57,510 nt of DNA, from NCBI GenBank assembly GCA_021813645.1, contig JAKAJW010000158.1, positions 1-57,510 of the forward strand, in the 5' to 3' direction. Source of the stretch: Pseudomonadota bacterium. Lineage in GTDB: Bacteria; Pseudomonadota; Alphaproteobacteria; Rhodobacterales; Rhodobacteraceae. The position numbers and the translations under genes are program-made. The notes under the pieces are model-generated. The model was not told the origin of the DNA and made no database searches. It saw only the letters and a program-made list of their open reading frames with translations. Of this stretch, positions 8,858 through 39,588 are shown in pieces; positions within the stretch are counted from its first letter, which is position 1, and each line of letters opens with the position of its first letter.

Positions 8858-9099
8858 ACCAGCCCGCGACGTGGGAGGGCTGGCAGGTCTGGGACCTCGC
8901 CGGGCGCCTCGGCGGTCAGCTCCGGGTGGCGCCTGGCGCGGTGATCGGCTGGGACATGGGCGCCGCGCTGGCGCTGGCCGCGGCGTTGGGCGTGCCGGTC
9001 CTCGCGGCGGCAGAACTCCTGCCGGTCATCGAGGCGGCGATGGTCACTAAACTCAACGAACAGAGCGGATCAGGCGGCCTGGAGGGGTGTGATGTCTGA
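8764..9099 (+). CDS. gpT-like extension of the tail chaperone, reached by -1 frameshift
   Basis: Not in the ORF track. The -1 frame reads RLRALAEWSFGGGDGYCTACPQTCPDCPARLNQP...GWQVWDL...LLPVIEAAMV...GCDV*. Confidence 0.8.
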   Translation, partial: RLRALAEWSFGGGDGYCTACPQTCPDCPARLNQPATWEGWQVWDLAGRLGGQLRVAPGAVIGWDMGAALALAAALGVPVLAAAELLPVIEAAMVTKLNEQSGSGGLEGCDV

Positions 9100-9360
9100 G
9101 ACATCGACGGTCTCGCGGGCGCGGGCGATATCCCAGGCGCGCTGCAGGTTCATCCAGTATTCCGGCGTGGTGCCAAAGAACTTCGCGAGCCGCATCGCGC
9201 TGTCCACGGTGAGCGCGGTCTCGCCCTTCACCAGGCGTTCGATCCGCGTGCGGGGAACATGCAGATGCCTGGCAAGGGCAATCGGGCTCATCCCCAGGGG
9301 GTCAAGATACAGCTCCGCCAGAACTTCGCCAGGGTGAGAAGGGTTCTTCATCAGTGTCAT
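9070..9360 (-). CDS. higA: HigA family antitoxin
   Basis: 96 aa, HPGEVL...LARHLHVPRTRI...AMRLAKFFGTTPEYWMNLQ. Confidence 0.93.
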   Translation of the reverse strand: MTLMKNPSHPGEVLAELYLDPLGMSPIALARHLHVPRTRIERLVKGETALTVDSAMRLAKFFGTTPEYWMNLQRAWDIARARETVDVSDITPLQAA

Positions 9361-19079: not shown

Positions 19080-19415
19080 ATGACACTTCTGAACGGAGAG
19101 CCGGGAGGCATCTTACTTGGCCGCAGCCTGGCCTGGACCATCGTGGTCGGGCTGGTCACGGGCGGCATCTGGGTCGGCACCACCGTGACCCGGCTCGACC
19201 AGACCACGCAGGAACTGCGCGCCACCCTCGCCGCAATGGAACGGGCCAACGCGCAGGTCGATGCCGATCAGGGCGTCGAGATCCGCGCCCAGTCCGACCG
19301 GCTGCGCGCGCTCGAGATCACCGGCGCCTCGACCCGCTCGACGCTGGAAGGCATGGCCGCCGATCTCCGCGACATCAAGGCCACGCTCGGCGATCTCGCC
19401 AAGGGGAGGAACTGA
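19080..19415 (+). CDS. single-TM plus coiled-coil lysis-region protein (holin/antiholin-like)
   Basis: AGGAGG RBS; 111 aa with TM segment LAWTIVVGLVTGGIWVG; immediately before the endolysin. Confidence 0.6.
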   Translation: MTLLNGEPGGILLGRSLAWTIVVGLVTGGIWVGTTVTRLDQTTQELRATLAAMERANAQVDADQGVEIRAQSDRLRALEITGASTRSTLEGMAADLRDIKATLGDLAKGRN

Positions 19416-19416
19416 G

Positions 19417-20160
19417 ATGGAGGCGAACCGTGCCGCCTGCATGGCCTTCGTCCTGCACGAAGAAGGCGGCTATGTGAACGACCCGCGCGATCCGGGTGGC
19501 GAGACGAAGTTCGGCATCTCGAAGCGCAGCCACCCGGGCCTCGACATCAGGGCACTGACCGAGGCGGACGCCATCGCGCTCTACACCGCAAACGAGTGGC
19601 GGGCGCTGGCCTGTTCCGACCTCCCCGCCGGCCTCGATATCGTCGCCTTCGACGCTGGGGTGAACAGCGGCGTCACCCGCGGCGCGCGCTGGCTGCAGGG
19701 CGCGCTGAAGGTGCCGGTGGACGGGCGCATCGGGCCGGTGACGCTGGCCGCGGCGCGGTCACAGGCGCCGCTGCCGGTGATCGAAGCGGCCTGTGCCACC
19801 CGCATGTCCTTCCTGCGGGGGCTGCGGACCTTCACGACCTTCGGCCGGGGCTGGACGGCCCGCGTCGCCCGTGTCGAGGCCCGCGCAACGGCGATGGCGG
19901 TGGTGACAACCGGCAGCGATCTTAGGCCGGTGCTTGCGGCGAAAGCCGCAGCCGCCGAGGGCGCCGCCAGAGCCCAGACGACACGCGCCGCCGCCACCCT
20001 CGGCAGCGGCGGCGTCCTCGCAGGCGCCACCCCACTCCCGGATTGGGCTCTCGCGGCGCTCGTCGCGATCATCGCTGTGGCGGCGGTCGCCCTGATCCTC
20101 AAACGACAGCAGCACCGGGCGCGCGCCGCGGCGTTCCGCATCGAAGGAGACCTGACATGA
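19417..20160 (+). CDS. glycoside hydrolase family 108 endolysin
   Basis: EEGGYVNDPRDPGGETKFGIS, FDAGVNSG, DGRIGPVT, FGRGWTARV; hydrophobic C-terminal tail. Confidence 0.92.
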   Translation: MEANRAACMAFVLHEEGGYVNDPRDPGGETKFGISKRSHPGLDIRALTEADAIALYTANEWRALACSDLPAGLDIVAFDAGVNSGVTRGARWLQGALKVPVDGRIGPVTLAAARSQAPLPVIEAACATRMSFLRGLRTFTTFGRGWTARVARVEARATAMAVVTTGSDLRPVLAAKAAAAEGAARAQTTRAAATLGSGGVLAGATPLPDWALAALVAIIAVAAVALILKRQQHRARAAAFRIEGDLT

Positions 20161-25918: not shown

Positions 25919-26242
25919 ATGGCCCTTCTGATCTTCCTCGCCGCCGCTCTTGCGGAGATCGCCGGATGCTTCGCCTTCTGGGCGTGGGCGCGCTCGGGCC
26001 AGTCCGTTCTCTGGCTCGGCCCCGGTGTTGCCTGTCTCGTCCTCTTCGCCTGGCTTCTGACGCTCTGCCCCACGGCCTTCGCCGGGCGCGCCTACGTCGT
26101 CTATGGCGGCATCTACATCGTCGCCTCGCTCGGCTGGCTCTGGGCGGTCGAGGGACAGCGGCCGGATGGCTGGGATATGGTCGGCGTGGCACTCTGTCTC
26201 GCGGGCGCCGCCCTGATGCTTTGGGCCCCGCGGGGCGCCTGA
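25919..26242 (+). CDS. ynfA: YnfA/UPF0060 small membrane protein (SMR-like)
   Basis: [13 protein letters not shown]...AGRAY..YGGIYI..SL.WLW.VEG.RPD.WD. Confidence 0.9.
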
Positions 26243-26347
26243 GCGCCGACAGTCACCCCCTGACACGTCAGAAGCGTCGGCGCGACCTGGTGCACGGCAC
26301 CGGATCGCGCTACGAAGCGCTGCGTGACGCCGAGATTGGGAACGCCA

Positions 26348-26376
26348 TTGCAATGTTACCACCGTAACAATATTAT
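26348..26376 (+). promoter_or_regulatory. sigma70-like promoter with an operator palindrome in the spacer; probably a leaderless transcript
   Basis: TTGCAA-N17-TATTAT; TGTTAC-cacc-GTAACA at 26354-26369; ATG 7 nt after the -10 box and no Shine-Dalgarno. Confidence 0.75.
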
Positions 26377-26383
26377 TGTCCTC

Positions 26384-26935
26384 ATGAGTGACATTCACTG
26401 GCTCCTCCTGACCTACAAGGTCCCCCCCGAGCCCGCGTCGAAGCGGGTCTCGATCTGGCGCAAGCTGAAGGGGATGGGCGCGGTCTATCTCCAGAACGGC
26501 GTCTGCCTGCTGCCGAAGACTGACGACCACGTGCGCCGGCTGAAGATGCTGGAAAATGACGTCGGCGGGGCGGCGGGTGAAAGCGTCATCCTGGAGACGG
26601 TCGGGCTCGACGCGATGCAGGAAGAGAAGGTGGTCGCGCGGTTCAAGGCCGACCGCGACGCCGCCTACGAGGAGTTCATCGACAAGTGCGACGACTTCGA
26701 GCGCGAGGTCGCCAAGGAGATCGCCGCCAACCACTACACCTATGCCGAGCTCGAAGAGAACGACGTCGATCTGAAGAAGCTGCAGGGCTGGCTCGCCAAG
26801 ATCCGCAAGCTCGACTTCTACGGCGGCACGCGGGCCGGCGAGGCCGAAGAACGGCTGAAGGGGTGCGAAGCCGTGCTCGACGATTACGCGCGCCGGGTGT
26901 TCGACGCCCACGAGGAGAACGGGGGAGCGTCATGA
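26384..26935 (+). CDS. ChrB N-terminal-domain (PaaX-like) putative regulator
   Basis: 183 aa, WLLLTYKVPPEP...RV.IWRKLKGMGAVYLQNGVCLLP...F...R...YEE; no chrA nearby. Confidence 0.82.
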   Translation: MSDIHWLLLTYKVPPEPASKRVSIWRKLKGMGAVYLQNGVCLLPKTDDHVRRLKMLENDVGGAAGESVILETVGLDAMQEEKVVARFKADRDAAYEEFIDKCDDFEREVAKEIAANHYTYAELEENDVDLKKLQGWLAKIRKLDFYGGTRAGEAEERLKGCEAVLDDYARRVFDAHEENGGAS

Positions 26936-27141
26936 GCGCCGTTTTTCAGGAGTTCGCGCCGCGCACCGCCTTCTTCCCGCGCTTACCGCCGGAGGAACTA
27001 ACGGAGGCACAGTCGCGCCTGCTTCTCTGGCTGGACCGGCAGCGTCAGCGGGCGCGCCTGGCAGAGCTCGAAGACTGGCAACTCGATGATATCGGCGTCA
27101 GCCGGTCGGCGGCAGTGACGGAAAGCCGACGCTGGGACTGA
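26932..27141 (+). CDS. DUF1127 small protein
   Basis: RQRQRARLAELEDWQLDDIGVSR motif; ATGA coupling. Confidence 0.85.
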   Translation: MSAVFQEFAPRTAFFPRLPPEELTEAQSRLLLWLDRQRQRARLAELEDWQLDDIGVSRSAAVTESRRWD

Positions 27142-27172
27142 TCCGGGCGCAGGCAGAAAGGGAGTGTTCGAC

Positions 27173-27922
27173 ATGTTGGCATGGTCCACCGCAGCCCCGG
27201 CGATCGGATCGGCGTTCCTCGCTTCGATCGTCGAGGTGGTCGAGGCGTTCACCATCATCCTCGCGGTCGCGACCCTGCGCGGCTGGCGTCCCGCGGTTCT
27301 CGGGACCGGCGCCGCGCTCGGGCTTCTGGGCGCCATCGTGCTGGCGCTCGGCCCGCTGCTCGACCGCGTGCCGCTGCACCTGCTGCAACTCATCATCGGC
27401 GTGCTGCTGCTGCTGTTCGGCATCGGCTGGCTGCGCAAGGCCTCGCTCCGGGCGGCAGGGGTCATTCCGCTGCATGACGAGGACGCGATCTTCGCCTCGG
27501 AATCCGCCCATCTGTCAGAGGAAGCCCGGCGGAAGAAGACCTCGCTCGACTGGATCGCGGGCATTACCGCCTTCAAGGCGGTCCTTCTTGAAGGGCTGGA
27601 GGTCGTCTTCATCGTCATCGCGGTCGGGGCCGGCAGGGGCCTTTTGTGGCCTGCGAGCCTCGGGGCGCTTGGCGCCTGCGCGCTCGTGCTGATGGTCGGG
27701 GCCTTCGTGCACAAGCCGCTGTCGCAGGTGCCGGAGAACACCTTGAAGTTCGGCGTCGGCGTCATGCTCTCGGCCTTCGGAATGTTCTGGACCGGCGAAG
27801 GGCTCGGCGTCGAATGGCCCGGAGCCGATCTGGCGCTCCTCGTCTTTGCGCTTCTCTTTCTCGGGGCGGGACTGCTTGCCGCCCAGATCGCCCGCACCAT
27901 GCAACCGGAGGCCGCGAAATGA
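27173..27922 (+). CDS. COG4280-type membrane protein (repeated ExxE motifs, putative ion transporter)
   Basis: ASIVEVVEAFTI and AVLLEGLEVVFI repeats; VPENTLKF.VG.MLSAFG.FW.GEG. Confidence 0.82.
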   Translation: MLAWSTAAPAIGSAFLASIVEVVEAFTIILAVATLRGWRPAVLGTGAALGLLGAIVLALGPLLDRVPLHLLQLIIGVLLLLFGIGWLRKASLRAAGVIPLHDEDAIFASESAHLSEEARRKKTSLDWIAGITAFKAVLLEGLEVVFIVIAVGAGRGLLWPASLGALGACALVLMVGAFVHKPLSQVPENTLKFGVGVMLSAFGMFWTGEGLGVEWPGADLALLVFALLFLGAGLLAAQIARTMQPEAAK

Positions 27923-28161
27923 CCATTCTGACGGATGTCCTGTCCGAACTGTTCGGCATGTTCGTGGGCGATGCGCGCCTCTCCGCGGCGATCCTTGTCG
28001 TCGTCGCGGCGGCCGCCGGCACGATTCGGCTGACCGGCGCCTCGCCGCTCGCCGGAGGGGCTTTGCTTCTTCTGGGCTGTCTGGCGGTGATGATCGGCGC
28101 GGTCCTGCGCGCGGCGCGGTTGCGTGCACGGACGGCGCGGGCGGAACGCACACAAGGCTGA
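27919..28161 (+). CDS. small membrane protein
   Basis: 80 aa, ELFGMFVGD plus two TM segments; GGAGG RBS and ATGA coupling. Confidence 0.72.
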   Translation: MTILTDVLSELFGMFVGDARLSAAILVVVAAAAGTIRLTGASPLAGGALLLLGCLAVMIGAVLRAARLRARTARAERTQG

Positions 28162-28163
28162 TC

Positions 28164-28568
28164 GTGGATATTCGTCGCCCGATCCTCTGGGTGGCGCTTG
28201 GCAGCGCCGCGGGCGGGGTCGCCCGGTTCTTCGTCTCTGGCGTCGTCGCGCGCGGCATCGGCGGGACCTTTCCCTGGGGGACGATGGTGGTGAACGTCAC
28301 CGGCGCCTTCGCCATCGGCGTCCTGTCGGCGGCGGCCGGGCGGCATCGGTTCTTCGCCCGGCCGGAGGCCTGGCCGCTTCTTGTCACCGGGTTTCTTGGC
28401 AGTTACACGACCGTGGCGTCCTTCAGCCTGCAAACGCTCGCGCTTGCGCGGGACGGTGAAACCCGGCGGGCCGTGGCCAACCTTCTTTTGACCCTCGCGC
28501 TCGGCCTCGCCGCCGTTGCGGCCGGTGCCTTCGCCGCGCCCTGGCTGCTGCACGGGATCGGCGCATGA
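28164..28568 (+). CDS. crcB: fluoride channel Fluc/CrcB, paired (heterodimer)-type subunit
   Basis: GSAAGGVARF, FPWGTMVVNVTG, TGFLGSYTTVASF. Confidence 0.88.
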   Translation: MDIRRPILWVALGSAAGGVARFFVSGVVARGIGGTFPWGTMVVNVTGAFAIGVLSAAAGRHRFFARPEAWPLLVTGFLGSYTTVASFSLQTLALARDGETRRAVANLLLTLALGLAAVAAGAFAAPWLLHGIGA

Positions 28569-28914
28569 GGCGCGACGGGCTGACGATGGCGCGATGGCGC
28601 GATGGCGCGCGTTCCGAGGCGGCGTTCTTCTCTACGCCTTCGTCGCCGCAGGCGCCGCCATCGGCGGCGTCGGGCGCGCGCTGGTCTCGCTCGCATCAAT
28701 CGAGCTTGCCGGTTCCCGTTTTCCTTGGGGAACGCTTGTCGCCAATGCCGTTGGCTCCTTCTTCATTGGCTTCTACGCCACCCTGACGGAACCCGGCGCC
28801 AATATCGGTCTTTCGATCGTGTCCTCGCTGCTTGCGGTCTGGGCGGGAGCCATCATGGCGGCGAGGTTGAACCGGCTGTCCGGAGACCGTGCCCCGTCCG
28901 CATCAACAGAATGA
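28565..28914 (+). pseudogene. crcB: second CrcB subunit, disrupted by an 8-nt repeat frameshift and an internal deletion of TM3
   Basis: GAAIGGVGR and FPWGTLVANAVGSF are present, then EPG joins ANIGLS (near 28797) with no GxxGxxTTFS segment. Confidence 0.85.
28584..28607 (+). repeat. tandem repeat (CGATGGCG)x3
   Basis: Three exact 8-nt units read directly from the sequence. Confidence 0.9.
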
Positions 28915-29283
<369 letters not shown>

Positions 29284-29301: not shown

Positions 29302-31740
29302 TCAGCGGCCGGTCTGGCGCTGGGAGAGTTCATCACTGTCGCTCCAATCCGACGGATCGGCATTTCCCATGAGCCCCGTCCTGTTGAGCAATCCTGTCTT
29401 GATCTGGTCCAAGAGCACAGTGGCGGCAAGGACCGCCGCGAATGTGCCGACAAGCAGACTGACGGGCAAAGATGCCATCAGGATGCCGCCTGCCGCCAGG
29501 ATGGAGGCGATGGCGACGTTGCTGAGCGTCGCGGCCGCGACATAGCGGCTGGGTGGGATGCACCAGAAGCGGCCGGGCACGCGCGTGATGTAGATCGTGG
29601 CCTGGGCGGAATAAATAAGATAGACGAACATCAGCGTCTGGATCTGCGTGGTCGTCAGGTGCAGCACGGCCATTGCCACCCAGAGAATGGCAAAGGCAAG
29701 CACCAGCCAGCCGATGGCCAGAACGCCGCCGACTTTGGCGATTTCGCGCACGTCCCAGTGTTGCGGTGCCGAAGCCCCCTGCACCCGGTCGGTCGCCAGC
29801 GTGATCGTGACGACATCATTCAGCACGACGATCACCGCGATCAGTTCAAGTGGTACCGGGAAAAAGCCGGTCGCGATGTAACCGAAGGTAAGCAGCGCCG
29901 CGAGTTCGACGGTCCGCGCGATCTTGGTGATCGTCCAGGTCAGCATGCGCCGATAGACGCGCCGTCCGCCCTGCACCACCGAGACGATGCCTTGCAGACC
30001 CGGAGCCGTCAGCACGACCTGTGCCGATGCCTTGGCAACATCCGTGGCCGAATGGACCGCGATGCCCACATCCGCCTGTTTCAGGGCGGGCGCGTCGTTC
30101 ACGCCGTCGCCGGTCATCCCCGTGGCATGACCGGACTTCTGCAGCGCCTGAACCAGGTGGAATTTCTCCTCCGGGAAGAAGCTTGCAAAGCCATCGTATT
30201 CCAGCGGGCTGCTCACGGCAGCCGCGGCGTCGCCGAACCGGTCGCCAAGCCCGACCGCGTGACCGACGGCCCGGGCCGTCATGGCCGTATCCCCGGTGAC
30301 CATCAGCACTCGGATACCGAGCTGACCGATGGCTTTGACAAGCTGGGCCGCGTCCTCGCGCAAGGCATCGCCAAGGGCGACGAGGCCACGGAGGGTCAAT
30401 TGGCCCTCGGGCCCTGCGGCAATGGCCAGCACGCGCGCGCCCGTCGCGGCCAGTTTTTCGACTTCGGGTCCGAGGTCGGGCAGCGGGGCGGCGAGTGATT
30501 GGACGACCTGCGGCGCGCCCATCACCACATGGGTGCCTTGCCCGTCCCGGATGACAATGGCTTCCGACAGCTTGGTCGCGGGGTCGAAGGCCACAAAGCT
30601 CTGCCGGGCGAGCGGTGCCAGCGCGCGGGTCCTGAAAGCGCGCAGGATCTCAATCTCGACAGCCCCTTGCGCCGCCTCGTCGCAGGCTGCGGCGGCGAGG
30701 GTCAGCACCTGATCCTCGCTTTCCCCGTCAAAGGGGGCGATGGCGGCGAGGGTCTCCTTGTTTTGGGTCAGCGTGCCGGTCTTGTCGATGCACAGCACGT
30801 CCATGATGGCGGCTTCCTGCAGCGCCGACAGGCCGGTGACCAGAACGCCCTGGCTCACCAATTCGCGGGCCTCGACCGCGTTGGCGACGGTAAAGGCCGT
30901 CGGCATCGTGACCGGCACCGTGGCGATGATCAGCACCAGAAAGAACGGGATCAGCGGCAGAAGGCCGGATCCGCTCCACAACACCGCCGCCACCAGCACC
31001 ACGGCCAGCACGCCGTCGATGCCGATCAGATAGCGCACGACGGTGAACAGAAGGTGGTCAAGGTGACCGGCCGACCCTGCCGTCCGCACGAGTTCGGCGG
31101 TGCGCCCATAAAAGCTCTGCTTGCCGGTGGCAGTGATCGTTCCGGTGGCCTCGCCCCGCGCGACGATGGAGGCCGAATAGATCGTCTCCCCAGCCGACCG
31201 CCGGACCACGCCGGATTCTCCCGTCAGCGCGGACTGGTTGACGTCCAGTGTCCCATCGAGGACCGTCAGGTCGGCCGGCACGATATCTCCCGTCCTGATC
31301 CTGACCAGATCGCCCGGCACCACCTCGCGCGCGGCAAGGGTCCGCCAGGTGCCCGATCGGCGCACTTGCGCATTGACCTGCAAGCGGCTGCGCAAAAGGT
31401 CCAGCGCGGTCTGCGCCCGGCGTTCCTGCACCCCGCCGAGGACCGCGCTGAAGATCAGCCAGCCCGCGATCAATGCCGGAGCCGCCACCTTGCCCAGAAG
31501 CACTTCCAGCACGAGCGCCGCCTCGAGCATCCAGGGGATCGGGCCCCAAAGGCGTTTCAGAATACCGCGCAGCAGGTTGGGCGGCGCTTCGCTGATGTCG
31601 TTCAGGCCAAATTGGCCCAGGCGGGCTGCCGCCTCCGCCTCCGAAAGACCGTCCGCGGACCCTGGATTGACGCCGTGTGACTGCGCAGCTTCGGCTTTCA
31701 CAAGCGGCGTTGCGGAAGCGGGGTCGTCGGCTGCGGTCAT
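29302..31740 (-). CDS. P-type ATPase, P3A plasma-membrane H+-exporting type
   Basis: WGPIPWMLEAA, LTGES, VPVTMP, DKTGTLT, GDGVNDAPALK; TM6 VLNDVVTITLATD. Confidence 0.85.
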   Translation of the reverse strand: MTAADDPASATPLVKAEAAQSHGVNPGSADGLSEAEAAARLGQFGLNDISEAPPNLLRGILKRLWGPIPWMLEAALVLEVLLGKVAAPALIAGWLIFSAVLGGVQERRAQTALDLLRSRLQVNAQVRRSGTWRTLAAREVVPGDLVRIRTGDIVPADLTVLDGTLDVNQSALTGESGVVRRSAGETIYSASIVARGEATGTITATGKQSFYGRTAELVRTAGSAGHLDHLLFTVVRYLIGIDGVLAVVLVAAVLWSGSGLLPLIPFFLVLIIATVPVTMPTAFTVANAVEARELVSQGVLVTGLSALQEAAIMDVLCIDKTGTLTQNKETLAAIAPFDGESEDQVLTLAAAACDEAAQGAVEIEILRAFRTRALAPLARQSFVAFDPATKLSEAIVIRDGQGTHVVMGAPQVVQSLAAPLPDLGPEVEKLAATGARVLAIAAGPEGQLTLRGLVALGDALREDAAQLVKAIGQLGIRVLMVTGDTAMTARAVGHAVGLGDRFGDAAAAVSSPLEYDGFASFFPEEKFHLVQALQKSGHATGMTGDGVNDAPALKQADVGIAVHSATDVAKASAQVVLTAPGLQGIVSVVQGGRRVYRRMLTWTITKIARTVELAALLTFGYIATGFFPVPLELIAVIVVLNDVVTITLATDRVQGASAPQHWDVREIAKVGGVLAIGWLVLAFAILWVAMAVLHLTTTQIQTLMFVYLIYSAQATIYITRVPGRFWCIPPSRYVAAATLSNVAIASILAAGGILMASLPVSLLVGTFAAVLAATVLLDQIKTGLLNRTGLMGNADPSDWSDSDELSQRQTGR

Positions 31741-33456: not shown

Positions 33457-33485
33457 TTGACGACAAGGATCGTTCGGCCTATCCA
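33457..33485 (+). promoter_or_regulatory. sigma70-like promoter for riboswitch 1
   Basis: TTGACG-N17-TATCCA ending 7 nt before the aptamer. Confidence 0.55.
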
Positions 33486-33492
33486 AAGGCTA

Positions 33493-33538
33493 CGGGATGG
33501 AGTTCCCGGTAACCGCCGTCATGGCTGATGACTCCTGC
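33493..33538 (+). ncRNA. fluoride riboswitch (crcB motif) 1
   Basis: CGGGA-TGGAGT-TCCCG-GTAACC-GCC-GTCAT-GGC-TGATGACTCCTGC: P1, P3 and the GGAGT/ACTCC pseudoknot are all present. Confidence 0.93.
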
Positions 33539-33573
33539 GCAGATACCTGGGCCTTGCCGAGGAGAGGTGTGCA

Positions 33574-34206
33574 GTGGCGCAAGAGGCAAACCCGTCAGAC
33601 GACCGGAATCCGGTCGAGGCGCTGCTGAATGATCCGATGGTCCGGATGATGATGGCAGCCGATGGTGTGAGTGCGGACGAACTGCGTGCCCGGCTTGTTG
33701 AAACCGGGGTGCGGCTATCCACGCCGCTGCAGGACGCATCATTCGGGGTCTATCGCTACGGTGTGGGCATCATTCTCTTCAATATGGCAGGTGATGTGCT
33801 GATGGCGCGGCGCATCGGTTCGACGGACGGAACCTGGCAGATGCCGCAGGGGGGAATCGAGCCCGGCGAAACCCCGATCGCGGCCGCCCTGCGCGAGTTG
33901 CAGGAGGAAATCGGCACGACCCATGCCGAGGTCCTTGCAGAAAGCGCAAGCTGGTATCGCTACGATCTGCCCGAGCCGTTTCGCAGGGCAGCGCGCCACA
34001 AGGGGTTTGACGGTCAGGTGCAGAAGTGGGTCGCCCTGCGCTTCACCGGCAGCGACACCGAAATCGACCTGAAGACAGCCGAACCCGAGTTCGAGTCCTG
34101 GTGCTGGGTCAGCGCGGACGCGGTGCCGGGCCGGGCCTCGCCGTTCCGGCAGGCGTTGTATCGCGCGGTGATCGACGAGTTCCGGGCGTTTGCCTGCCCG
34201 CCGTGA
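33574..34206 (+). CDS. rppH: RppH-like Nudix hydrolase with an N-terminal extension
   Basis: YRYGVGIILFN, WQMPQGG, Nudix box GGIEPGETPIAAALRELQEEIG, GQVQKW, EPEFESW.W. Confidence 0.88.
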   Translation: MAQEANPSDDRNPVEALLNDPMVRMMMAADGVSADELRARLVETGVRLSTPLQDASFGVYRYGVGIILFNMAGDVLMARRIGSTDGTWQMPQGGIEPGETPIAAALRELQEEIGTTHAEVLAESASWYRYDLPEPFRRAARHKGFDGQVQKWVALRFTGSDTEIDLKTAEPEFESWCWVSADAVPGRASPFRQALYRAVIDEFRAFACPP

Positions 34207-35328: not shown

Positions 35329-35356
35329 TTGACAAAGCACACGGCGGGCCTACACT
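35329..35356 (+). promoter_or_regulatory. sigma70 promoter for riboswitch 2
   Basis: TTGACA-N16-TACACT ending 6 nt before the aptamer. Confidence 0.7.
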
Positions 35357-35362
35357 CGCCAC

Positions 35363-35408
35363 AGGTGATGGGGTTCACCTTGTAACCGCCTTATGGCTGA
35401 TGACTCCT
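35363..35408 (+). ncRNA. fluoride riboswitch (crcB motif) 2
   Basis: AGGTGA-TGGGGT-TCACCT-TGTAACC-GCC-TTAT-GGC-TGATGACTCCT. Confidence 0.93.
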
Positions 35409-35441
35409 TTTCTGGCTGTCCGGTCTGGGAAAGGCTTGTGC

Positions 35442-35522: not shown

Positions 35523-35880
35523 TGCAGCGCGACAGTCTTTTGCAGATTCCGCGGGTTATCCCGGCGCTTCCGCAGGCACCGCTGTTCCAGGGCATCATCC
35601 TGCCGTTCGAGGAACGGATGCAGCGCTCTGGCAGTGTCCCCAGCCCCTTCCGCCCTGTCGAGATCTGGCCATGCGGTTGCACGAGGACGGGTGCGCCGTT
35701 TGGGTCGGCAGATGTCGCCTCTTGCCGCGCAGGCGGTGATCCGAGACAAGGTCGAGCGGTGCGACGGACGCGCGGGCCCCTGCGCCGCAGCCGCGCCATC
35801 TCGACCTCTGTCTGGCCCGCCTCCGGGCGCGGCCTGTGCCGATCCGGACGCCGGAGATGTGCAGATGGAAAGGAACCGTG

Positions 35881-36255
35881 GTGTTGACCTATCTCTGGAT
35901 CGCCGTCTTCGGCACGCTGGGCTGCATCGGGCGCTATGGCATGACCCGGCTCATTCAGGGCCTGTTGGGGAACACGTTTCCCTATGCGACGCTGGTCATC
36001 AACGTATCGGGCGCCTTCCTGATGGGGTTCCTTTTCGTCGCGACGCTTGAGCGGCTGACCGTCAACCCGCAGTTGCGCACCGGCATCCTGACCGGTTTTC
36101 TGGGCGGCTATACGACGTTTTCGACCTATGCCATGGAATCGCTCACCCTCGCCGAACAGGGCGAAACGGGGCGGGCGCTGCTCTACATGGGGCTGTCCAA
36201 CGGTGTCGGCATTCTGGCGGCCTTCCTTGGGGCGTTTGTGGCCCGCGCTCTTTGA
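35881..36255 (+). CDS. crcB: fluoride channel Fluc/CrcB, intact
   Basis: 124 aa, GTLGCIGRY, FPYATLVINVSG, canonical TGFLGGYTTFSTY; GAAAGGA RBS. Confidence 0.94.
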   Translation: MLTYLWIAVFGTLGCIGRYGMTRLIQGLLGNTFPYATLVINVSGAFLMGFLFVATLERLTVNPQLRTGILTGFLGGYTTFSTYAMESLTLAEQGETGRALLYMGLSNGVGILAAFLGAFVARAL

Positions 36256-36278
36256 GCCCGCCCGCCGCGCGGGCTCAA
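36252..36278. terminator. hairpin between convergent crcB and mutS-like genes
   Basis: TTGAGCCCGC-N7-GCGGGCTCAA; each arm contains one gene's stop codon; no long U tract. Confidence 0.5.
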
Positions 36279-37837
36279 GCCGCATCGACAAAGTAGCGGC
36301 GATAGACATCTGCGCCAAAGCTGGTCGTGAGCGGTTCGCCTTCATGCAGGCGGAACGAAGCCGCACCGTTCTCGGCCGGGTCGGCGCGCAGGAAGAAGCT
36401 GTGTTCGGACTGGGCATGCAATGTGCCGGTAAAGGCGTAAAGGTGCGACACGGTGACCTGCTTCACCCGCCGCGCCTGCAGCGCCCGCGTCACCTGAAGC
36501 GCGATTTCGGACCCTTCGCGCTCGTTGGTCGCGGCGAAAGCCTCGTTGAACAGGACCAGAGCATCGGGCGCCAGATGGTCGATGATGCCGCTCATCCGCG
36601 CCAGTTCCTCGTCCAGCTTTCCGCTGGACATGCTCGCATCCTCCTCGCGCTTGAAATGGGTGAAGATACCCTGTGCCACGTCGGCCGAGTAGGTCGCGGC
36701 AGGGACAAACATGCCCGCCTGCATCATCAGCTGCGCCTGACCCAGACTGCGCAGGAAGGTGGTCTTGCCGCCCCGGTTGGCGCCGGTCACCACGATAAGG
36801 TCCGAAGTCCCCGCATCCACGGTATTGCCCACGATCTTTCGCCCCATGCCAAGGGCAAGCGCCAGATCGTAAAGCTCGCGGCAGGTCGTGGCGCGGCCAC
36901 CCTTCGGCCGGGGGTCGGGCAGACAGGTCGGCATGCCCAGTTCGCCCAGCCTGTCCTTCAGGTTGAGACATGCGACATAGAATGCAAGCTCGGTGCGCAA
37001 CATGTCGAAGAAGCTGTGGATGTGATCGACCGATTGCCCCAACGCATCGGCCACCTGCGCCAGGCCGCGGTCGCGCAGTTCACCCAGCGCGGTCGCCCCG
37101 GCATCGTCGCGCGGCGCAAGGGTGAGGGTGTAACTTTCCTCGTGCGGACCGAAGAGCCAGTTCAGCCAGCCCGCGTTTTCTTCCGACGGCATGCGCAGCA
37201 CATAATCCCTGGCCTTGCAGGTCTGTCCCATCTCGGCGCTGATCGGCACGCCATGGCGAAACTCCAGCCGTTTTAGATGTGCCGCGACCTCTGCAAAATA
37301 GCTGTCGTCAAGTTCCTCGCCCAGCATTGCGAACAGTCGGGAAAAACCGGGGGAGCGGAAATCCGGCCCTGCAAGGGTGGCGATGTCGCGCAGACGGCGC
37401 AACGACTCCATGTAGGATTTCATCGCCTCGACCGACCGGCTGAGGATGCTGGACGGTTGGCTGAACCCCAACCCGCCGCCCGCCTTGCGCACCGCCTCGT
37501 TCGCCTCGATCGACAGCGCATAGATGTCGCGCACGACCCCAGGATTGGTCAGGGCGTCGCGCAGGATCGCCTGCCGGTAGAGGCTGGTGTCACGGTCAAG
37601 CCTGCTGCCGGACAGGAGCCCGCGACGGCTAACTTCGTAGAGGAAGAGGTCATCCCTTGCCATCGCTTGCAGGATCGGCTCGAGTTGCAGATCCCGGAAC
37701 AGCGCCTCGGACAGCGGCGGCAGGTTTTCCCACGGGCCAGGCGGCTGCCCGTCTCGGCGCGGATAGGGGTTTGCGATCACGATCAGCCACTGATCGGGGT
37801 CGAAATCACGGTCGGGGAACATCAGGAAAGCCTTCAT
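36275..37837 (-). CDS. MutS-related ATPase B (domain V; no mismatch-binding or Smr domain recognised)
   Basis: 520 aa from MKAFLMF; VTGANRGGKTTFLR, FTHFKREED, GKLDEEL, LFNEAFAATN. Confidence 0.88.
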   Translation of the reverse strand: MKAFLMFPDRDFDPDQWLIVIANPYPRRDGQPPGPWENLPPLSEALFRDLQLEPILQAMARDDLFLYEVSRRGLLSGSRLDRDTSLYRQAILRDALTNPGVVRDIYALSIEANEAVRKAGGGLGFSQPSSILSRSVEAMKSYMESLRRLRDIATLAGPDFRSPGFSRLFAMLGEELDDSYFAEVAAHLKRLEFRHGVPISAEMGQTCKARDYVLRMPSEENAGWLNWLFGPHEESYTLTLAPRDDAGATALGELRDRGLAQVADALGQSVDHIHSFFDMLRTELAFYVACLNLKDRLGELGMPTCLPDPRPKGGRATTCRELYDLALALGMGRKIVGNTVDAGTSDLIVVTGANRGGKTTFLRSLGQAQLMMQAGMFVPAATYSADVAQGIFTHFKREEDASMSSGKLDEELARMSGIIDHLAPDALVLFNEAFAATNEREGSEIALQVTRALQARRVKQVTVSHLYAFTGTLHAQSEHSFFLRADPAENGAASFRLHEGEPLTTSFGADVYRRYFVDAA

Positions 37838-39432
37838 GACACGATCCTTTCGGCGATCTGCTCGGCAGTCAGCCCATGCCGGCGGGCGAGGAAGATGGCG
37901 AAGGCGTTGCCGTCGGCGGGTTTGCGGATGATCTTGAAGGTGCGCTCGACCGGGTTCTCCGGAACGACCGTGCTGGCGCAACTGACCACTGTCGGACCCA
38001 AGCGCGAAATCTCGTCCAGGAAGGTCACGCAGACGCAGATCAGGTCGCGTTCAATGATTTGCGTCATCACCTTGGTGGCCAGTTCCACCGCATCGGTCAG
38101 CGAGGTCGAGGCAAAGATCTCATTTATGATCACCACGCTGTCCGATGTGGCGGCCTGAAGGATCTCGTGGATGCGAAACACCTCGTCCTCCAGCTTGCCG
38201 CGCTGGGTGGCCACGGTTTCCTCGCGCTCGAAATGGGTGAAGAGCCGGTCGAAGAGAAACAGCCGTGCCGAGGCGCCGGGGACCGGGCAGCCCAAGGCCG
38301 CCAGATAATGAAGCTGGCCCACCATGCGCGCGAAGGTGGTCTTGCCGCCCTGATTGGGACCGGTGATGACGATGACACGCTCTGGCCCGTCCAAATGAAA
38401 GTCGTTGGTGACGATTGCCGTTCCCGCCGCCACCATCTTGTGGGCCAGGGCGATGTCGAACGTGGCCTCGACGCTTTCAGTCTTGTCGGTCCGCGAAAGC
38501 TTGGGCGTGCAGACGGGCAATCCTGCCTGCCGCAGCGGTGCGAGATAGGCCGACCAGGCGAGGTAGAACTGGATCTCGCGGTCGAACCGCAGGATCACCG
38601 GGTCGATGAACGCGGACCAGGTTTCAGCGAAGGAGGACAGTCGGGCGAAGGGTTCGGGGAAAAGCAGGGCGACGCGGTCGAGGATTCCGGATTCCACATG
38701 GTTCATCTCTGCCATCTCGGGGAATTTCCAGTCGCGGCCCTTGCCGGCGCGCTGGCGGAATTTCTCGAAGGTGCGTGTCACGATGTCGCTGTAATCCCCG
38801 CTTTCGTTGTAGCGGCTCACGCGCACCGTGCCGGCCCCGATCAGCAGGCTGTAGCGCAGGCTTGCCATCGCGCCGCGCACCGCGGTCGCCTCGGCGCACA
38901 GCGTTGTGAACCGCGACCCGGCGACGTGGTCCGACAACCAGGCACCGAAGGCCGTCAGCCCGCGCGATGTCGGCTTCGCCGACGCAAGGTCGGCCGACAG
39001 GGCAGAGACGACGGCGACGTAATCTTCGGCGGCAGCGACCAGACCGGCCTGCTTCTGGCGAACGTAATAGAATTTGCCGGTGCGCGTCAGGGTTTCGCGC
39101 ACTTTGCGCATGCGCTCCGCGAAGGACAGCAGTGCCTGATACACAGGCGCGGCCTCAAGGTCGCGGAACACCTCGTGCCGCCAGGCCAAGGCATCGAGAT
39201 CTCGCAGGGGCTGATGGAAGAACGCCTCCAGCGCGTATTCCGTGAAGCCCGAAATGGCCTGCTTCACGATCTGATCGAGGTTCAGATCGTGAAAACAGTC
39301 CGGCTGCAGCGGGGGCGGCGATTGCAGCAGATCCTTCGGACCGAAGAGAATGCTGGAAAATCCCTCGGCAGAACCCGCGGCCGACATCGGAACGACCGGG
39401 CTAGCCAGATCCGAACTGTCTTTCCGATCCAT
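37834..39432 (-). CDS. MutS-related ATPase A (domain V; no mismatch-binding or Smr domain recognised)
   Basis: 532 aa; FHDLNLDQI, ITGPNQGGKTTFAR, FTHFEREE, GKLEDE, IINEIFASTS; ATGA coupling to B. Confidence 0.88.
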   Translation of the reverse strand: MDRKDSSDLASPVVPMSAAGSAEGFSSILFGPKDLLQSPPPLQPDCFHDLNLDQIVKQAISGFTEYALEAFFHQPLRDLDALAWRHEVFRDLEAAPVYQALLSFAERMRKVRETLTRTGKFYYVRQKQAGLVAAAEDYVAVVSALSADLASAKPTSRGLTAFGAWLSDHVAGSRFTTLCAEATAVRGAMASLRYSLLIGAGTVRVSRYNESGDYSDIVTRTFEKFRQRAGKGRDWKFPEMAEMNHVESGILDRVALLFPEPFARLSSFAETWSAFIDPVILRFDREIQFYLAWSAYLAPLRQAGLPVCTPKLSRTDKTESVEATFDIALAHKMVAAGTAIVTNDFHLDGPERVIVITGPNQGGKTTFARMVGQLHYLAALGCPVPGASARLFLFDRLFTHFEREETVATQRGKLEDEVFRIHEILQAATSDSVVIINEIFASTSLTDAVELATKVMTQIIERDLICVCVTFLDEISRLGPTVVSCASTVVPENPVERTFKIIRKPADGNAFAIFLARRHGLTAEQIAERIVS

Positions 39433-39505
39433 CTCACTGACCCCCACTGTCCGGTCCGAATGCCCGGATGGATTTGGGCAGCTTGCGCAAGCCCAAGTGG
39501 AAACG

Positions 39506-39551
39506 TCAGGAGTCATCAGCCAAGACGGCGGTTGTGGGGAACCCCATCCCC
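39506..39551 (-). ncRNA. fluoride riboswitch (crcB motif) 3
   Basis: Minus strand GGGGA-TGGGGT-TCCCC-ACAACC-GCC-GTCTT-GGC-TGATGACTCCTGA. Confidence 0.93.
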
Positions 39552-39560
39552 GTCAACCAG

Positions 39561-39588
39561 AGATTGGAGTGTTCCGTCTCAATGTCAA
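39561..39588 (-). promoter_or_regulatory. sigma70-like promoter for riboswitch 3
   Basis: Minus strand TTGACA-N16-CAATCT just upstream of the aptamer. Confidence 0.55.

What the first reader, a model, noticed from the sequence alone, without database searches (positions are those of the whole stretch)
36275..39551. Fluoride-riboswitch-controlled pair of MutS-like ATPases with Asn in Walker B
Seen: promoter, aptamer and two ATGA-coupled paralogues (532 and 520 aa). Each has a helical N-region and a MutS domain V, with no mismatch-recognition or nuclease domain recognised. Both read NE (IINEIF, LFNEAF) where MutS proteins have DE. Known: MutS ATPases act as dimers, MutS-like genes have been noted behind this riboswitch class, and metal fluorides trap ATPases; I know of no assigned function. 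Inference: a heterodimeric clamp for fluoride stress, such as rescue of trapped ribosomes or enzymes. Best candidate here for an uncharacterised system.
Basis: partly seen in the sequence, partly recalled or inferred. Interest (0 to 1): 0.82.

Follow-up and report, generated by a model that had tools for sequence, protein, structure and literature searches.

The report
Fluoride-switched MutS4A/MutS4B ATPase pair
Two overlapping genes for stripped-down MutS-type ATPases sit behind a fluoride-sensing RNA switch in a fluoride-resistance gene island; they are a copy of the named but functionally unexplained MutS4A/MutS4B pair, which likely works as a two-part ATP clamp that would free cell machinery jammed by fluoride rather than repair DNA mismatches.

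Summary
Observation confirmed: Rfam fluoride riboswitch (54 bits), two ATGA-coupled ORFs of 532 and 520 aa, only Pfam MutS_V, Asn-Glu Walker B in both. The promoter is only partly supported. The pair is MutS4A/MutS4B (Lin 2007): 40% and 45% identical over full length to accessions published as MutS4A/B, and grouped with them in a tree. It lies in an island with three fluoride riboswitches, crcB, a second enolase and a P-type ATPase; no MutS4-level match in 60 relatives. In 80 related loci from 15 phyla, 67 carry the riboswitch, 46 directly upstream. So does the published Mycobacterium branderi pair; Kim 2017 read this family as recombination genes. Both ATP sites are rebuilt: DE to NE, signature STF to GKL, and A lacks the H-loop His. 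The predicted fold equals the MutS2 core without KOW/Smr. The heterodimer prediction gives weak support (0.56 vs control 0.34). The target is unknown; I commit to rescue of stalled ribosomes, with DNA clamp and enzyme reactivase as rivals. The family (2007) and the mutS-riboswitch link (2010) are in print, and this scan found the same pair five times on other DNA. New member of a known, unsolved kind.

The parts
39583..39588 (-). Putative -35 box (TTGACA); weak -10 candidate CAATCT at 39566-39561
   Evidence: Sequence. Same 36-37 nt offset of TTGAC before all three island aptamers. Not found by the consensus scan.
39500..39560 (-). Fluoride riboswitch aptamer (crcB motif, RF01734) in front of mutS4A
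   Evidence: 54 bits, E 3.1e-12, model positions 1-64
39433..39499 (-). Leader between aptamer and start codon, with a G-rich ribosome-binding site at 39445-39441; possible translational expression platform
   Evidence: No terminator-like site in it. The cost of opening the RBS falls from 11-16 to 7-10 kcal/mol when the aptamer is forced, in 6 of 6 transcript lengths, but the RBS stays paired in both states; no shuffle control.
37834..39432 (-). mutS4A, 532 aa: MutS core/lever, clamp arm, ABC ATPase, C-terminal helices. Walker A GPNQGGKTT, Walker B NE, H-loop Phe (F471) instead of His, signature GKL
38119..38124 (-). Codons for Walker B Asn437-Glu438 of MutS4A
   Evidence: NE in 79 of 79 loci and 147 of 148 distant representatives
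37834..37837 (-). ATGA stop/start overlap coupling A to B
   Evidence: ATGA in 72 of 80 related loci, GTGA with the B start in 3 more
36275..37837 (-). mutS4B, 520 aa: same architecture. Walker A GANRGGKTT, Walker B NE, H-loop His kept (H465), signature GKL, invariant RDxxG in the arm
36542..36547 (-). Codons for Walker B Asn431-Glu432 of MutS4B
   Evidence: NE in 68 of 70 loci
35836..36255 (+). Context: crcB/Fluc fluoride channel, convergent on mutS4B
   Evidence: Pfam CRCB E 5e-26
35355..35416 (+). Context: second fluoride riboswitch, upstream of crcB
   Evidence: 50.8 bits
34314..35135 (-). Context: universal stress protein
   Evidence: Pfam Usp E 4e-10
33484..34206 (+). Context: third fluoride riboswitch (33484-33544) followed by a Nudix hydrolase (33574-34206; RppH-like is my label), second copy in the genome
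32089..33393 (+). Context: enolase, second copy (57% identical to the other copy over 193 aa)
29302..31740 (-). Context: P-type cation ATPase
   Evidence: Pfam E1-E2_ATPase, Cation_ATPase_N
25919..29283 (+). Context: YnfA/UPF0060, ChrB_N, OFeT-like membrane protein, crcB, partial crcB, DUF190-like gene with an internal stop
   Evidence: DUF190 label by likeness to the cluster annotated

Best explanation
The two genes are MutS4A and MutS4B, coupled by an ATGA overlap behind a fluoride riboswitch, and they likely form a heterodimeric ATP-driven clamp that is predicted to be made when fluoride rises and would keep cycling while Mg-fluoride jams ordinary phosphoryl-transfer enzymes, prying apart stalled nucleoprotein machines, most likely stalled ribosomes. 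Steps: (1) Shown: riboswitch, coupling, MutS4 identity, island context. (2) Inferred from the riboswitch class: fluoride turns expression on, possibly by freeing the ribosome-binding site. (3) Inferred from obligate coupling, complementary active sites and the MutS fold: an A-B dimer with two unequal composite ATP sites; site B keeps the H-loop His and is the likely hydrolysing site, site A has Phe and is likely slow or regulatory. (4) Inferred from the E. coli D693N mutant: the Asn weakens Mg binding while ATP binding, hydrolysis and clamping remain, and the Lys that replaces the STF signature may supply the missing charge, so the site would be less easily trapped as ADP-Mg-fluoride. (5) Least certain: the target. 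The fold equals the MutS2 core, which is the part of MutS2 that splits collided ribosomes. My odds per step: MutS4 identity 0.97, fluoride regulon 0.9, heterodimer 0.8, active rescue clamp 0.55, ribosome as target 0.3.
For: Identity: 40% over 507 aa and 45% over 518 aa to M. branderi WP_083134047.1 and WP_083134046.1, listed as MutS4A/B in Kim 2017 Table S3; tree clades with SH-aLRT 96 each, and 99 against MutS1/2 (quick tree). Regulon: riboswitch in 67 of 80 loci, same strand within 450 nt upstream in 46 of 80; 0 pattern hits in 240 shuffled loci and in 21 MutS1/MutS2 loci of about 3.5 kb; all 3 hits of the 2.8-Mb genome lie in this island. Evenly drawn class sample: 4 of 400 genomes hold the pair, and 3 of 3 with upstream DNA have the riboswitch. 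Neighbours: enolase 30, CrcB 17, DUF190 17, hydrogenase-like subunits 10 and 8, Na/H exchanger 8, Usp 6, pyrophosphatase 5 of 80; most of these are named fluoride-regulon genes in PMC11139923 and PMC5533749 (passages). Asymmetry: A has TF/SF in 79 of 79, B has His in 70 of 70. Mg: D693N binds ATP alike with and without Mg (KD 0.5 vs 0.4 uM; wild type 0.034 vs 0.32), still hydrolyses and still forms clamps (PMC2857095, results parts 1 and 3 of 3 read). Fold: model residues 43-516 align to MutS2 residues 1-492 and to E. coli MutS 268-771, Z 26-30. Complex A+B: weak support, ipSAE 0.56 against best control 0.34; runs agree in 94% of contacts, partner pLDDT 79-80; at 0.60 or under only 18 of 157 solved complexes and both passing mismatches lay, and MutS dimers are solved, so memory may explain it. 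In B. subtilis the ATPase core does the splitting, and KOW/SMR mutants are only modestly impaired in vivo (PMC10897456 passages).
Against: No target is shown by any search. MutS4 lacks KOW and SMR, which recruit MutS2 to collisions. The pair occurs at 46% identity in archaea as well as bacteria (L023, L057), which suits a domain-neutral target such as DNA or enolase better than a ribosome surface (inference). 4 of 5 genomes checked also keep MutS1 and MutS2, so it is not a simple replacement. The only experiment found in print reports more recombination (55 vs 22 colonies; Kim 2017). 8 of 80 loci show no riboswitch even below threshold (three of them short contigs). [quoted passage not shown] The STF-to-GKL reading rests on sequence alignment only; I had no coordinates to inspect. 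The RBS stays paired in both modelled states.
Confidence: 0.4

Rival explanations
1. MutS4AB is a fluoride-induced DNA clamp that acts on recombination or stalled-fork intermediates (like MSH4-MSH5 or MutS2 on junctions), needed because fluoride blocks pyrophosphatase and so stalls polymerases.
For: The listed structural matches are DNA-clamp MutS proteins or MutS2. The arm of B is net basic (median +5). Kim 2017 saw more and longer recombination tracts with the M. yongonense operon. DNA is a domain-neutral target.
Against: The arm of A is neutral (median -1) and both proteins are acidic overall (median pI 5.8 and 6.3). The most conserved arm motif of B is R-D-x-x-G rather than a basic patch. 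Kim's effect is small (18 vs 7 colonies per trial) and, in the parts read, was run without fluoride, although the M. branderi orthologue sits 33 nt behind a riboswitch. The pyrophosphate link is inference.
Confidence: 0.25
2. MutS4AB is a protein reactivase, like the MutS-like ATPase KamC, that releases Mg-fluoride from a trapped enzyme such as enolase, a dynamin-like GTPase or pyrophosphatase.
For: NCBIfam names a 508-position MutS-like ATPase 'lysine 5,6-aminomutase reactivase KamC'; both proteins hit it weakly (53 and 65 bits, cut-off 300). Enolase occurs in 30 and dynamin-like GTPases in 26 of 80 loci, as co-directional next neighbour in 10 and 11. Enolase is conserved across domains.
Against: No partner is constant: 33 of 80 loci have neither enolase nor dynamin, and this genome shows no dynamin-type motif (Dynamin_N only as 34-40-position P-loop matches; genome 71% complete). 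MutS2 and MutS1 match the KamC model far better than MutS4 does (173-229 vs 48-78 bits). No KamC paper was found; its function is known to me only from the model's name and from recall.
Confidence: 0.17
3. The pair is a fluoride-gated switch: the Mg-weak sites close only when ADP plus metal-fluoride mimics ATP, and the closed dimer signals or holds a process until fluoride falls.
For: Asn and Phe at site A and a Lys at the signature are near invariant. MutS binds ADP-BeF3 (PDB 1nne). Asn and Phe as fluoride contacts in Fluc channels is recalled, not tested.
Against: The catalytic Glu and Walker A Lys are kept in both subunits, which suits true hydrolysis. A second sensor behind a sensor needs an output, and none is seen.
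Confidence: 0.1
4. It is an ordinary mismatch-repair MutS, or a passenger in the island.
For: Databases name it 'DNA mismatch repair protein MutS'; Weinberg 2010 listed it under DNA repair.
Against: No domain I or II by Pfam or fold; far below the MutS1 cut-off (71 of 642 bits); separate clade; its own riboswitch in 46 of 80 loci.
Confidence: 0.05

Closest known systems
MutS4A/MutS4B subfamily (Lin, Nei and Ma 2007, PMC2190696: passages and supplement table read; Kim et al. 2017, PMC5742357: text parts 1-3 of 6 and supplement passages)
   Same: Adjacent paralogues, stop of A overlapping start of B, MutS ATPase domain, patchy spread by transfer; 40% and 45% full-length identity and shared clades with accessions listed as MutS4A/B.
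   Different: No difference of kind. Neither paper, in the parts I read, mentions the riboswitch, the NE/TF/GKL sites or fluoride ('fluoride' 0 times in Kim's supplement). Kim reads the island's enolase and hydrogenase genes as pathogenesis-related and MutS4 as a recombination factor.
Fluoride riboswitch (crcB motif, RF01734) and its regulon (Weinberg 2010, PMC2864571, passage read; reviews PMC7266159 and PMC11139923, passages; E. cloacae FRM operon, PMC5533749, passages)
   Same: Full-length aptamer; island with crcB, enolase, Usp, P-type ATPase. Weinberg 2010 already names mutS among the genes behind the motif.
   Different: Those texts do not say which MutS, and the 2024 review has 0 occurrences of MutS. 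Baker 2012 was not held, so its gene list could not be checked.
MutS2/RqcU ribosome-splitting ATPase (Park et al. 2024, PMC10897456, passages; PDB 7qv3, 7vuf)
   Same: Core/lever, clamp and ABC ATPase without domains I and II; the model aligns over residues 43-516 with MutS2 1-492 (Z 26-28, rmsd 3.6-3.8).
   Different: MutS2 is a homodimer with KOW and SMR, and DE, STF and TH motifs. MutS4 is a two-gene pair without them, 15-19% identical, in a separate clade.
MutS1 and its D693N mutant (Lebbink 2010, PMC2857095, abstract and results parts 1 and 3 of 3)
   Same: Domains III-V; the natural Asn equals the engineered D693N change.
   Different: No mismatch-reading or connector domain; signature and H-loop also changed.
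KamC reactivase ATPase (NCBIfam NF052383)
   Same: Similar length, MutS-like ATPase, named for a non-DNA job.
   Different: 53-65 bits against a cut-off of 300, ATPase part only; not a member.

Membership tests
MutS4A/MutS4B | MutS ATPase (MutSac/MutS_V) domain in each of two paralogues | tested here: met
   Pfam MutS_V 74 and 61 bits, cut-off 30; full-length paralogy
MutS4A/MutS4B | Adjacent genes, stop of A overlapping start of B | tested here: met
   ATGA at 37837-37834; definition read
MutS4A/MutS4B | Groups with named MutS4A and MutS4B, apart from MutS1/MutS2 | tested here: met
   Quick IQ-TREE on 67 ATPase domains: SH-aLRT 96, 96 and 99; references are Kim 2017 Table S3 accessions found in L093, L095, L096; full-length identity 40% and 45%
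MutS4A/MutS4B | Distinct from MutS3 and MutS5; direct comparison with Lin's 2007 reference proteins | not tested
   No MutS3, MutS5 or Lin accession was in hand; the link to Lin runs through Kim's table, which shares Acidothermus cellulolyticus with Lin's
Fluoride riboswitch RF01734 | Covariance-model score above the gathering cut-off, in the 5' leader of a gene | tested here: met
   54 vs 34 bits; ends 67 nt before the ATG of A
Fluoride riboswitch RF01734 | Expression platform that couples binding to expression | tested here: inconclusive
   No terminator; RBS easier to open in the bound model but still paired
Fluoride riboswitch RF01734 | Binds fluoride and induces the genes | not testable with these tools
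   Needs in-line probing or a reporter
MutS1 (mismatch repair) | Mismatch-binding domain I and connector domain II | tested here: not met
   No Pfam MutS_I/II at E<=10; the confident part of the model aligns to E. coli MutS from about residue 268; 532 and 520 aa
MutS1 (mismatch repair) | TIGR01070 above cut-off; DE, STF and TH motifs | tested here: not met
   71 and 47 bits of 642; NE, GKL, TF/SH
MutS2/RqcU | Core/lever, clamp and ATPase without domains I-II | tested here: met
MutS2/RqcU | C-terminal KOW and SMR domains; TIGR01069 above cut-off | tested here: not met
   Proteins end after the ATPase and C-terminal helices; 62 and 60 bits of 400
MutS2/RqcU | Binds and splits collided ribosomes | not testable with these tools
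   Needs gradients and an in vitro splitting assay
KamC reactivase ATPase | NF052383 above cut-off | tested here: not met
   53 and 65 bits of 300
Heterodimeric MutS (MSH2-MSH6 type) | The two paralogues bind each other | tested here: inconclusive
   Weak support, 0.56 vs best control 0.34; no homodimer control; may rest on solved MutS dimers

The most novel reading that the evidence does not exclude
MutS4AB is a third arm of fluoride resistance beside export and enzyme overproduction: a fluoride-proof ATP machine whose Asn, Lys and Phe-rebuilt sites escape Mg-fluoride trapping and which actively frees jammed ribosomes or enzymes, spread by transfer across at least 13 bacterial and 2 archaeal phyla and misfiled everywhere as a mismatch-repair gene.
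Probability: 0.3. Interest if true: 0.85.

Novelty: new member of a known kind. Interest (0 to 1): 0.5.

Why it matters
MutS4 has had no settled function since it was named in 2007, and the mutS genes behind fluoride riboswitches have been an unexplained part of that regulon since 2010. The evidence here says these are one and the same thing, and gives both questions a cheap test: fluoride is the inducer and the condition to assay. It would also recast the one published MutS4 experiment, whose island (enolase, hydrogenase) has the make-up of a fluoride island. If the rebuilt ATP site resists metal-fluoride trapping, it is a natural solution to a general weakness of P-loop enzymes, of use for engineering microbes that release or tolerate fluoride. 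The locus itself is an ordinary member.

Tried and rejected
Natural A-B fusion as evidence of a complex: the one 1026-aa hit (P0271) has the last ~80 residues of A replaced by out-of-frame text and is on one contig, so it is likely a frameshift artefact; rejected. Consensus promoter scan: 0 found. Leader folding: z -1.2; the anti-RBS switch is not clean. Expression: no RNA holder listed. Dynamin or MFS as a fixed third part: 26 and 22 of 80 loci, none here; rejected as core parts. Anti-phage system: only marginal P-loop hits in PADLOC; one partial unannotated record in 50,697 phage records. MutS4 as a stand-in for a missing MutS1/MutS2: 4 of 5 genomes keep both. A-versus-B distance correlation r=0.70 over 69 loci is expected of linked genes and was not counted as co-evolution. 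The careful tree did not finish; the quick tree was used, with every fourth locus, and no MutS3/MutS5/KamC rows. Riboswitch count: pattern search on all 80 loci, Rfam on the 28 pattern-negative ones and on 9 of 52 positive ones, of which 7 reached the gathering score (L003, L016 did not). The 80 loci are the best of 572 by likeness to A from a scan that covered 34 of 64 parts, and kin are not independent. Literature searches that found no paper linking MutS4 to fluoride; KamC. Baker 2012 not held; Weinberg's supplements gave no hit for mutS, MutS4 or dynamin in the 8 files held as text; one Lin file was not searched. Subscription papers on MutS classification are outside the library and may hold the motifs.


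Full report
OBSERVATION. Rfam finds the fluoride riboswitch at 39560-39500 on the minus strand (54 bits, cut-off 34), and two more at 33484-33544 and 35355-35416. These three are the only ones found in the 2.8-Mb, 71%-complete genome. Gene A (39432-37834, 532 aa) and gene B (37837-36275, 520 aa) share ATGA. Pfam gives only MutS_V; NCBIfam scores for MutS1, MutS2 and KamC are far below cut-off. A and B are homologous along 452 columns. The promoter has an exact -35 box but a weak -10 and is missed by the consensus scan; a TTGAC box lies 36-37 nt before each of the three aptamers.

SURROUNDINGS. From 21.5 to 39.6 kb the contig carries an ABC transporter, TauE, YnfA, ChrB_N, an OFeT-like protein, three crcB genes (one partial), a broken DUF190-like gene, a P-type ATPase, enolase, a Nudix hydrolase and a Usp. 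Enolase and the Nudix gene are second copies. None of 60 relatives, 7 of them from the genus, has a MutS4-level match; their best hits are at most 63 bits, and the 11 examined are MutS1-type. The pair therefore likely came with an acquired fluoride island. Four DNA runs labelled mine drainage metagenome hold the stretch; they are flagged as its possible source and are not independent support.

WHAT IT IS. Lin, Nei and Ma (2007) defined MutS4A/MutS4B as adjacent paralogues with overlapping stop and start (passages). Kim et al. (2017) list accessions in Table S3. Four of them lie in three records I fetched: M. branderi WP_083134047.1 and WP_083134046.1, Rhodococcus WP_064074690.1, Rubrobacter WP_051590080.1. 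A is 40% identical to the M. branderi MutS4A over 507 aa and B 45% to MutS4B over 518 aa. In a quick tree of 67 ATPase domains, A groups with MutS4A and B with MutS4B (SH-aLRT 96 each), both apart from 21 MutS1/MutS2 rows (99) (no MutS3, MutS5 or KamC rows). The family is large: both word searches filled their ~8000-candidate limit at E<=1e-20, a count that includes other MutS proteins; 45 plasmid records match over at least 80% of A.

THE FAMILY IS TIED TO FLUORIDE. I examined 80 loci, the best of 572 from a partial scan, covering 13 named bacterial and 2 archaeal phyla, 8 unassigned. B follows A in 79; the remaining contig ends just after the start of B. The junction is ATGA in 72 and GTGA with the B start in 3. 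A fluoride riboswitch is present in 67, and lies on the same strand within 450 nt upstream of the A match in 46 (pattern plus Rfam; Rfam confirmed 7 of the 9 pattern-positive loci I sent). Five more have sub-threshold hits; eight have none. Controls: 0 hits in 240 shuffled loci and in 21 short MutS1/MutS2 loci. In 400 genomes drawn evenly from the class, the same 4 hold A and B, and 3 of the 3 with upstream DNA have the riboswitch. Neighbours among the 80: enolase 30, dynamin-like GTPase 26, MFS 22, CrcB 17, DUF190 17, hydrogenase-like subunits 10 and 8, Na/H exchanger 8, Usp 6, pyrophosphatase 5. None is constant: 33 loci have neither enolase nor dynamin. The published M. branderi MutS4A starts 33 nt behind a riboswitch, near three more and a hydrogenase operon. 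The M. yongonense island of Kim et al. holds enolase and hydrogenase genes, the usual fluoride-regulon cargo; I could not fetch that island itself. Of the four plasmid loci only L093 has the aptamer directly before A; L094 has it two genes upstream, and L095 and L096 have it elsewhere in the island.

ANATOMY. AlphaFold2 models are confident (pLDDT 87 and 84) except in the arms. The listed Foldseek matches are all MutS-family chains. Model residues 43-516 align with MutS2 1-492 and E. coli MutS 268-771, Z 26-30: core/lever, clamp arm, ATPase, C-terminal helices; no mismatch, connector, KOW or SMR domain. Three changes set the ATP sites apart from all 21 MutS1/MutS2 rows. Walker B DE becomes NE (A 79 of 79, B 68 of 70; 147 of 148 distant A representatives). 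The signature STF becomes GKL/GKF. The H-loop His becomes Phe in A only (A TF/SF 79 of 79, B His 70 of 70). Walker A Lys and the catalytic Glu are kept. The arm of B has a near-invariant RDxxG (R 74, D 76, G 76 of 76) and is net basic; the arm of A is neutral.

MECHANISM. The natural Asn equals E. coli D693N, which has an empty Mg site in its crystal structure, binds ATP equally with and without Mg, hydrolyses at the wild-type rate at 10 mM Mg and faster at higher Mg, still forms clamps, and repairs mismatches poorly. The signature Ser is the most conserved stimulator in ABC-type sites, and Lys fingers from the partner subunit are a known alternative (bioRxiv 10.1101/2022.06.23.497298, passages). 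I infer a heterodimer with one working and one degenerate site, less dependent on tightly held Mg and so less open to ADP-Mg-fluoride trapping. The complex prediction gives weak support only: 0.56 against a best control of 0.34, 94% contact agreement between runs, no homodimer control, and solved MutS dimers to remember. For the target I commit to stalled ribosomes at about 0.3, because the fold is the MutS2 core and that core does the splitting, with KOW/SMR mutants only modestly impaired in vivo. That fluoride complexes jam translation GTPases is recalled, not checked. Against: no recruiting domains, presence in archaea, and Kim's recombination result (55 vs 22 colonies). A DNA clamp (0.25), an enzyme reactivase like KamC (0.17) and a fluoride-gated switch (0.1) remain open. 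For the switch itself, no terminator was found; forcing the aptamer lowers the cost of opening the RBS in 6 of 6 lengths, yet the RBS stays paired.

NOVELTY. The family is in print since 2007 and the link between the crcB motif and mutS since 2010. My searches found two papers naming MutS4A/B and none joining MutS4 to fluoride or describing the NE/TF/GKL sites; Baker 2012 and subscription papers could not be read. This scan reported the same pair five times on other DNA; my reading was written down before that look-up, and those notes are not independent evidence. Verdict: a real, intact, ordinary member of a known but unsolved family, with a clear test. Interest 0.5; 0.85 if it proves to be an active fluoride-rescue machine (probability 0.3).

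Noticed in passing
window 186-21546: A run of phage-like head, tail and lysis genes directly before the island; only the GH108 lysozyme (19261-20160) was confirmed by Pfam, the rest is recognised from the translations.
   Followed up: no
window 28516-29283: Decay at the left end of the island: a crcB copy that matches only part of the model and a DUF190-like gene with an in-frame stop.
   Followed up: partly
26 of 80 loci, e.g. L005 3697-5523, L018 2919-4613, L043 63-1784: A dynamin-like GTPase (Pfam Dynamin_N) lies near the pair, as co-directional next neighbour in 11 loci, three of which (L018, L043, L052) show no riboswitch in the DNA held; none found in this genome.
   Followed up: partly
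L093 7439-12965 (Mycobacterium branderi plasmid): Four fluoride riboswitches: before a hydrogenase/Nudix operon, a Usp, a PE-PPE-WXG100 cassette (9093-9153) and mutS4A. A fluoride switch before a PE/PPE/esx-type cassette is unexpected.
   Followed up: no
L094 7925-21536 and plasmid hits H12-H40: Citrobacter, Klebsiella, Enterobacter, Salmonella and E. coli plasmids carry an A orthologue; in L094 the pair converges on usp-eno-gpmA-crcB-P-type ATPase, the gene order of the E. cloacae FRM fluoride operon.
   Followed up: partly
L003 5876-5926, L016 5769-5823 and similar: A riboswitch variant with matched changes on both pseudoknot strands falls below the Rfam gathering score in some Chloroflexota and Syntrophobacteria loci, so Rfam likely undercounts the class.
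   Followed up: partly
L037 3830-4297, L022 1610-2041, L076 9357-9641, L008 9511-9930: Small recurring proteins in MutS4 islands: three clusters with no Pfam family (6, 5 and 4 loci) and a zinc-ribbon plus HEAT-repeat protein (8 loci).
   Followed up: no
protein P0271: Apparent A-B fusion of 1026 aa, most likely a frameshift artefact.
   Followed up: yes
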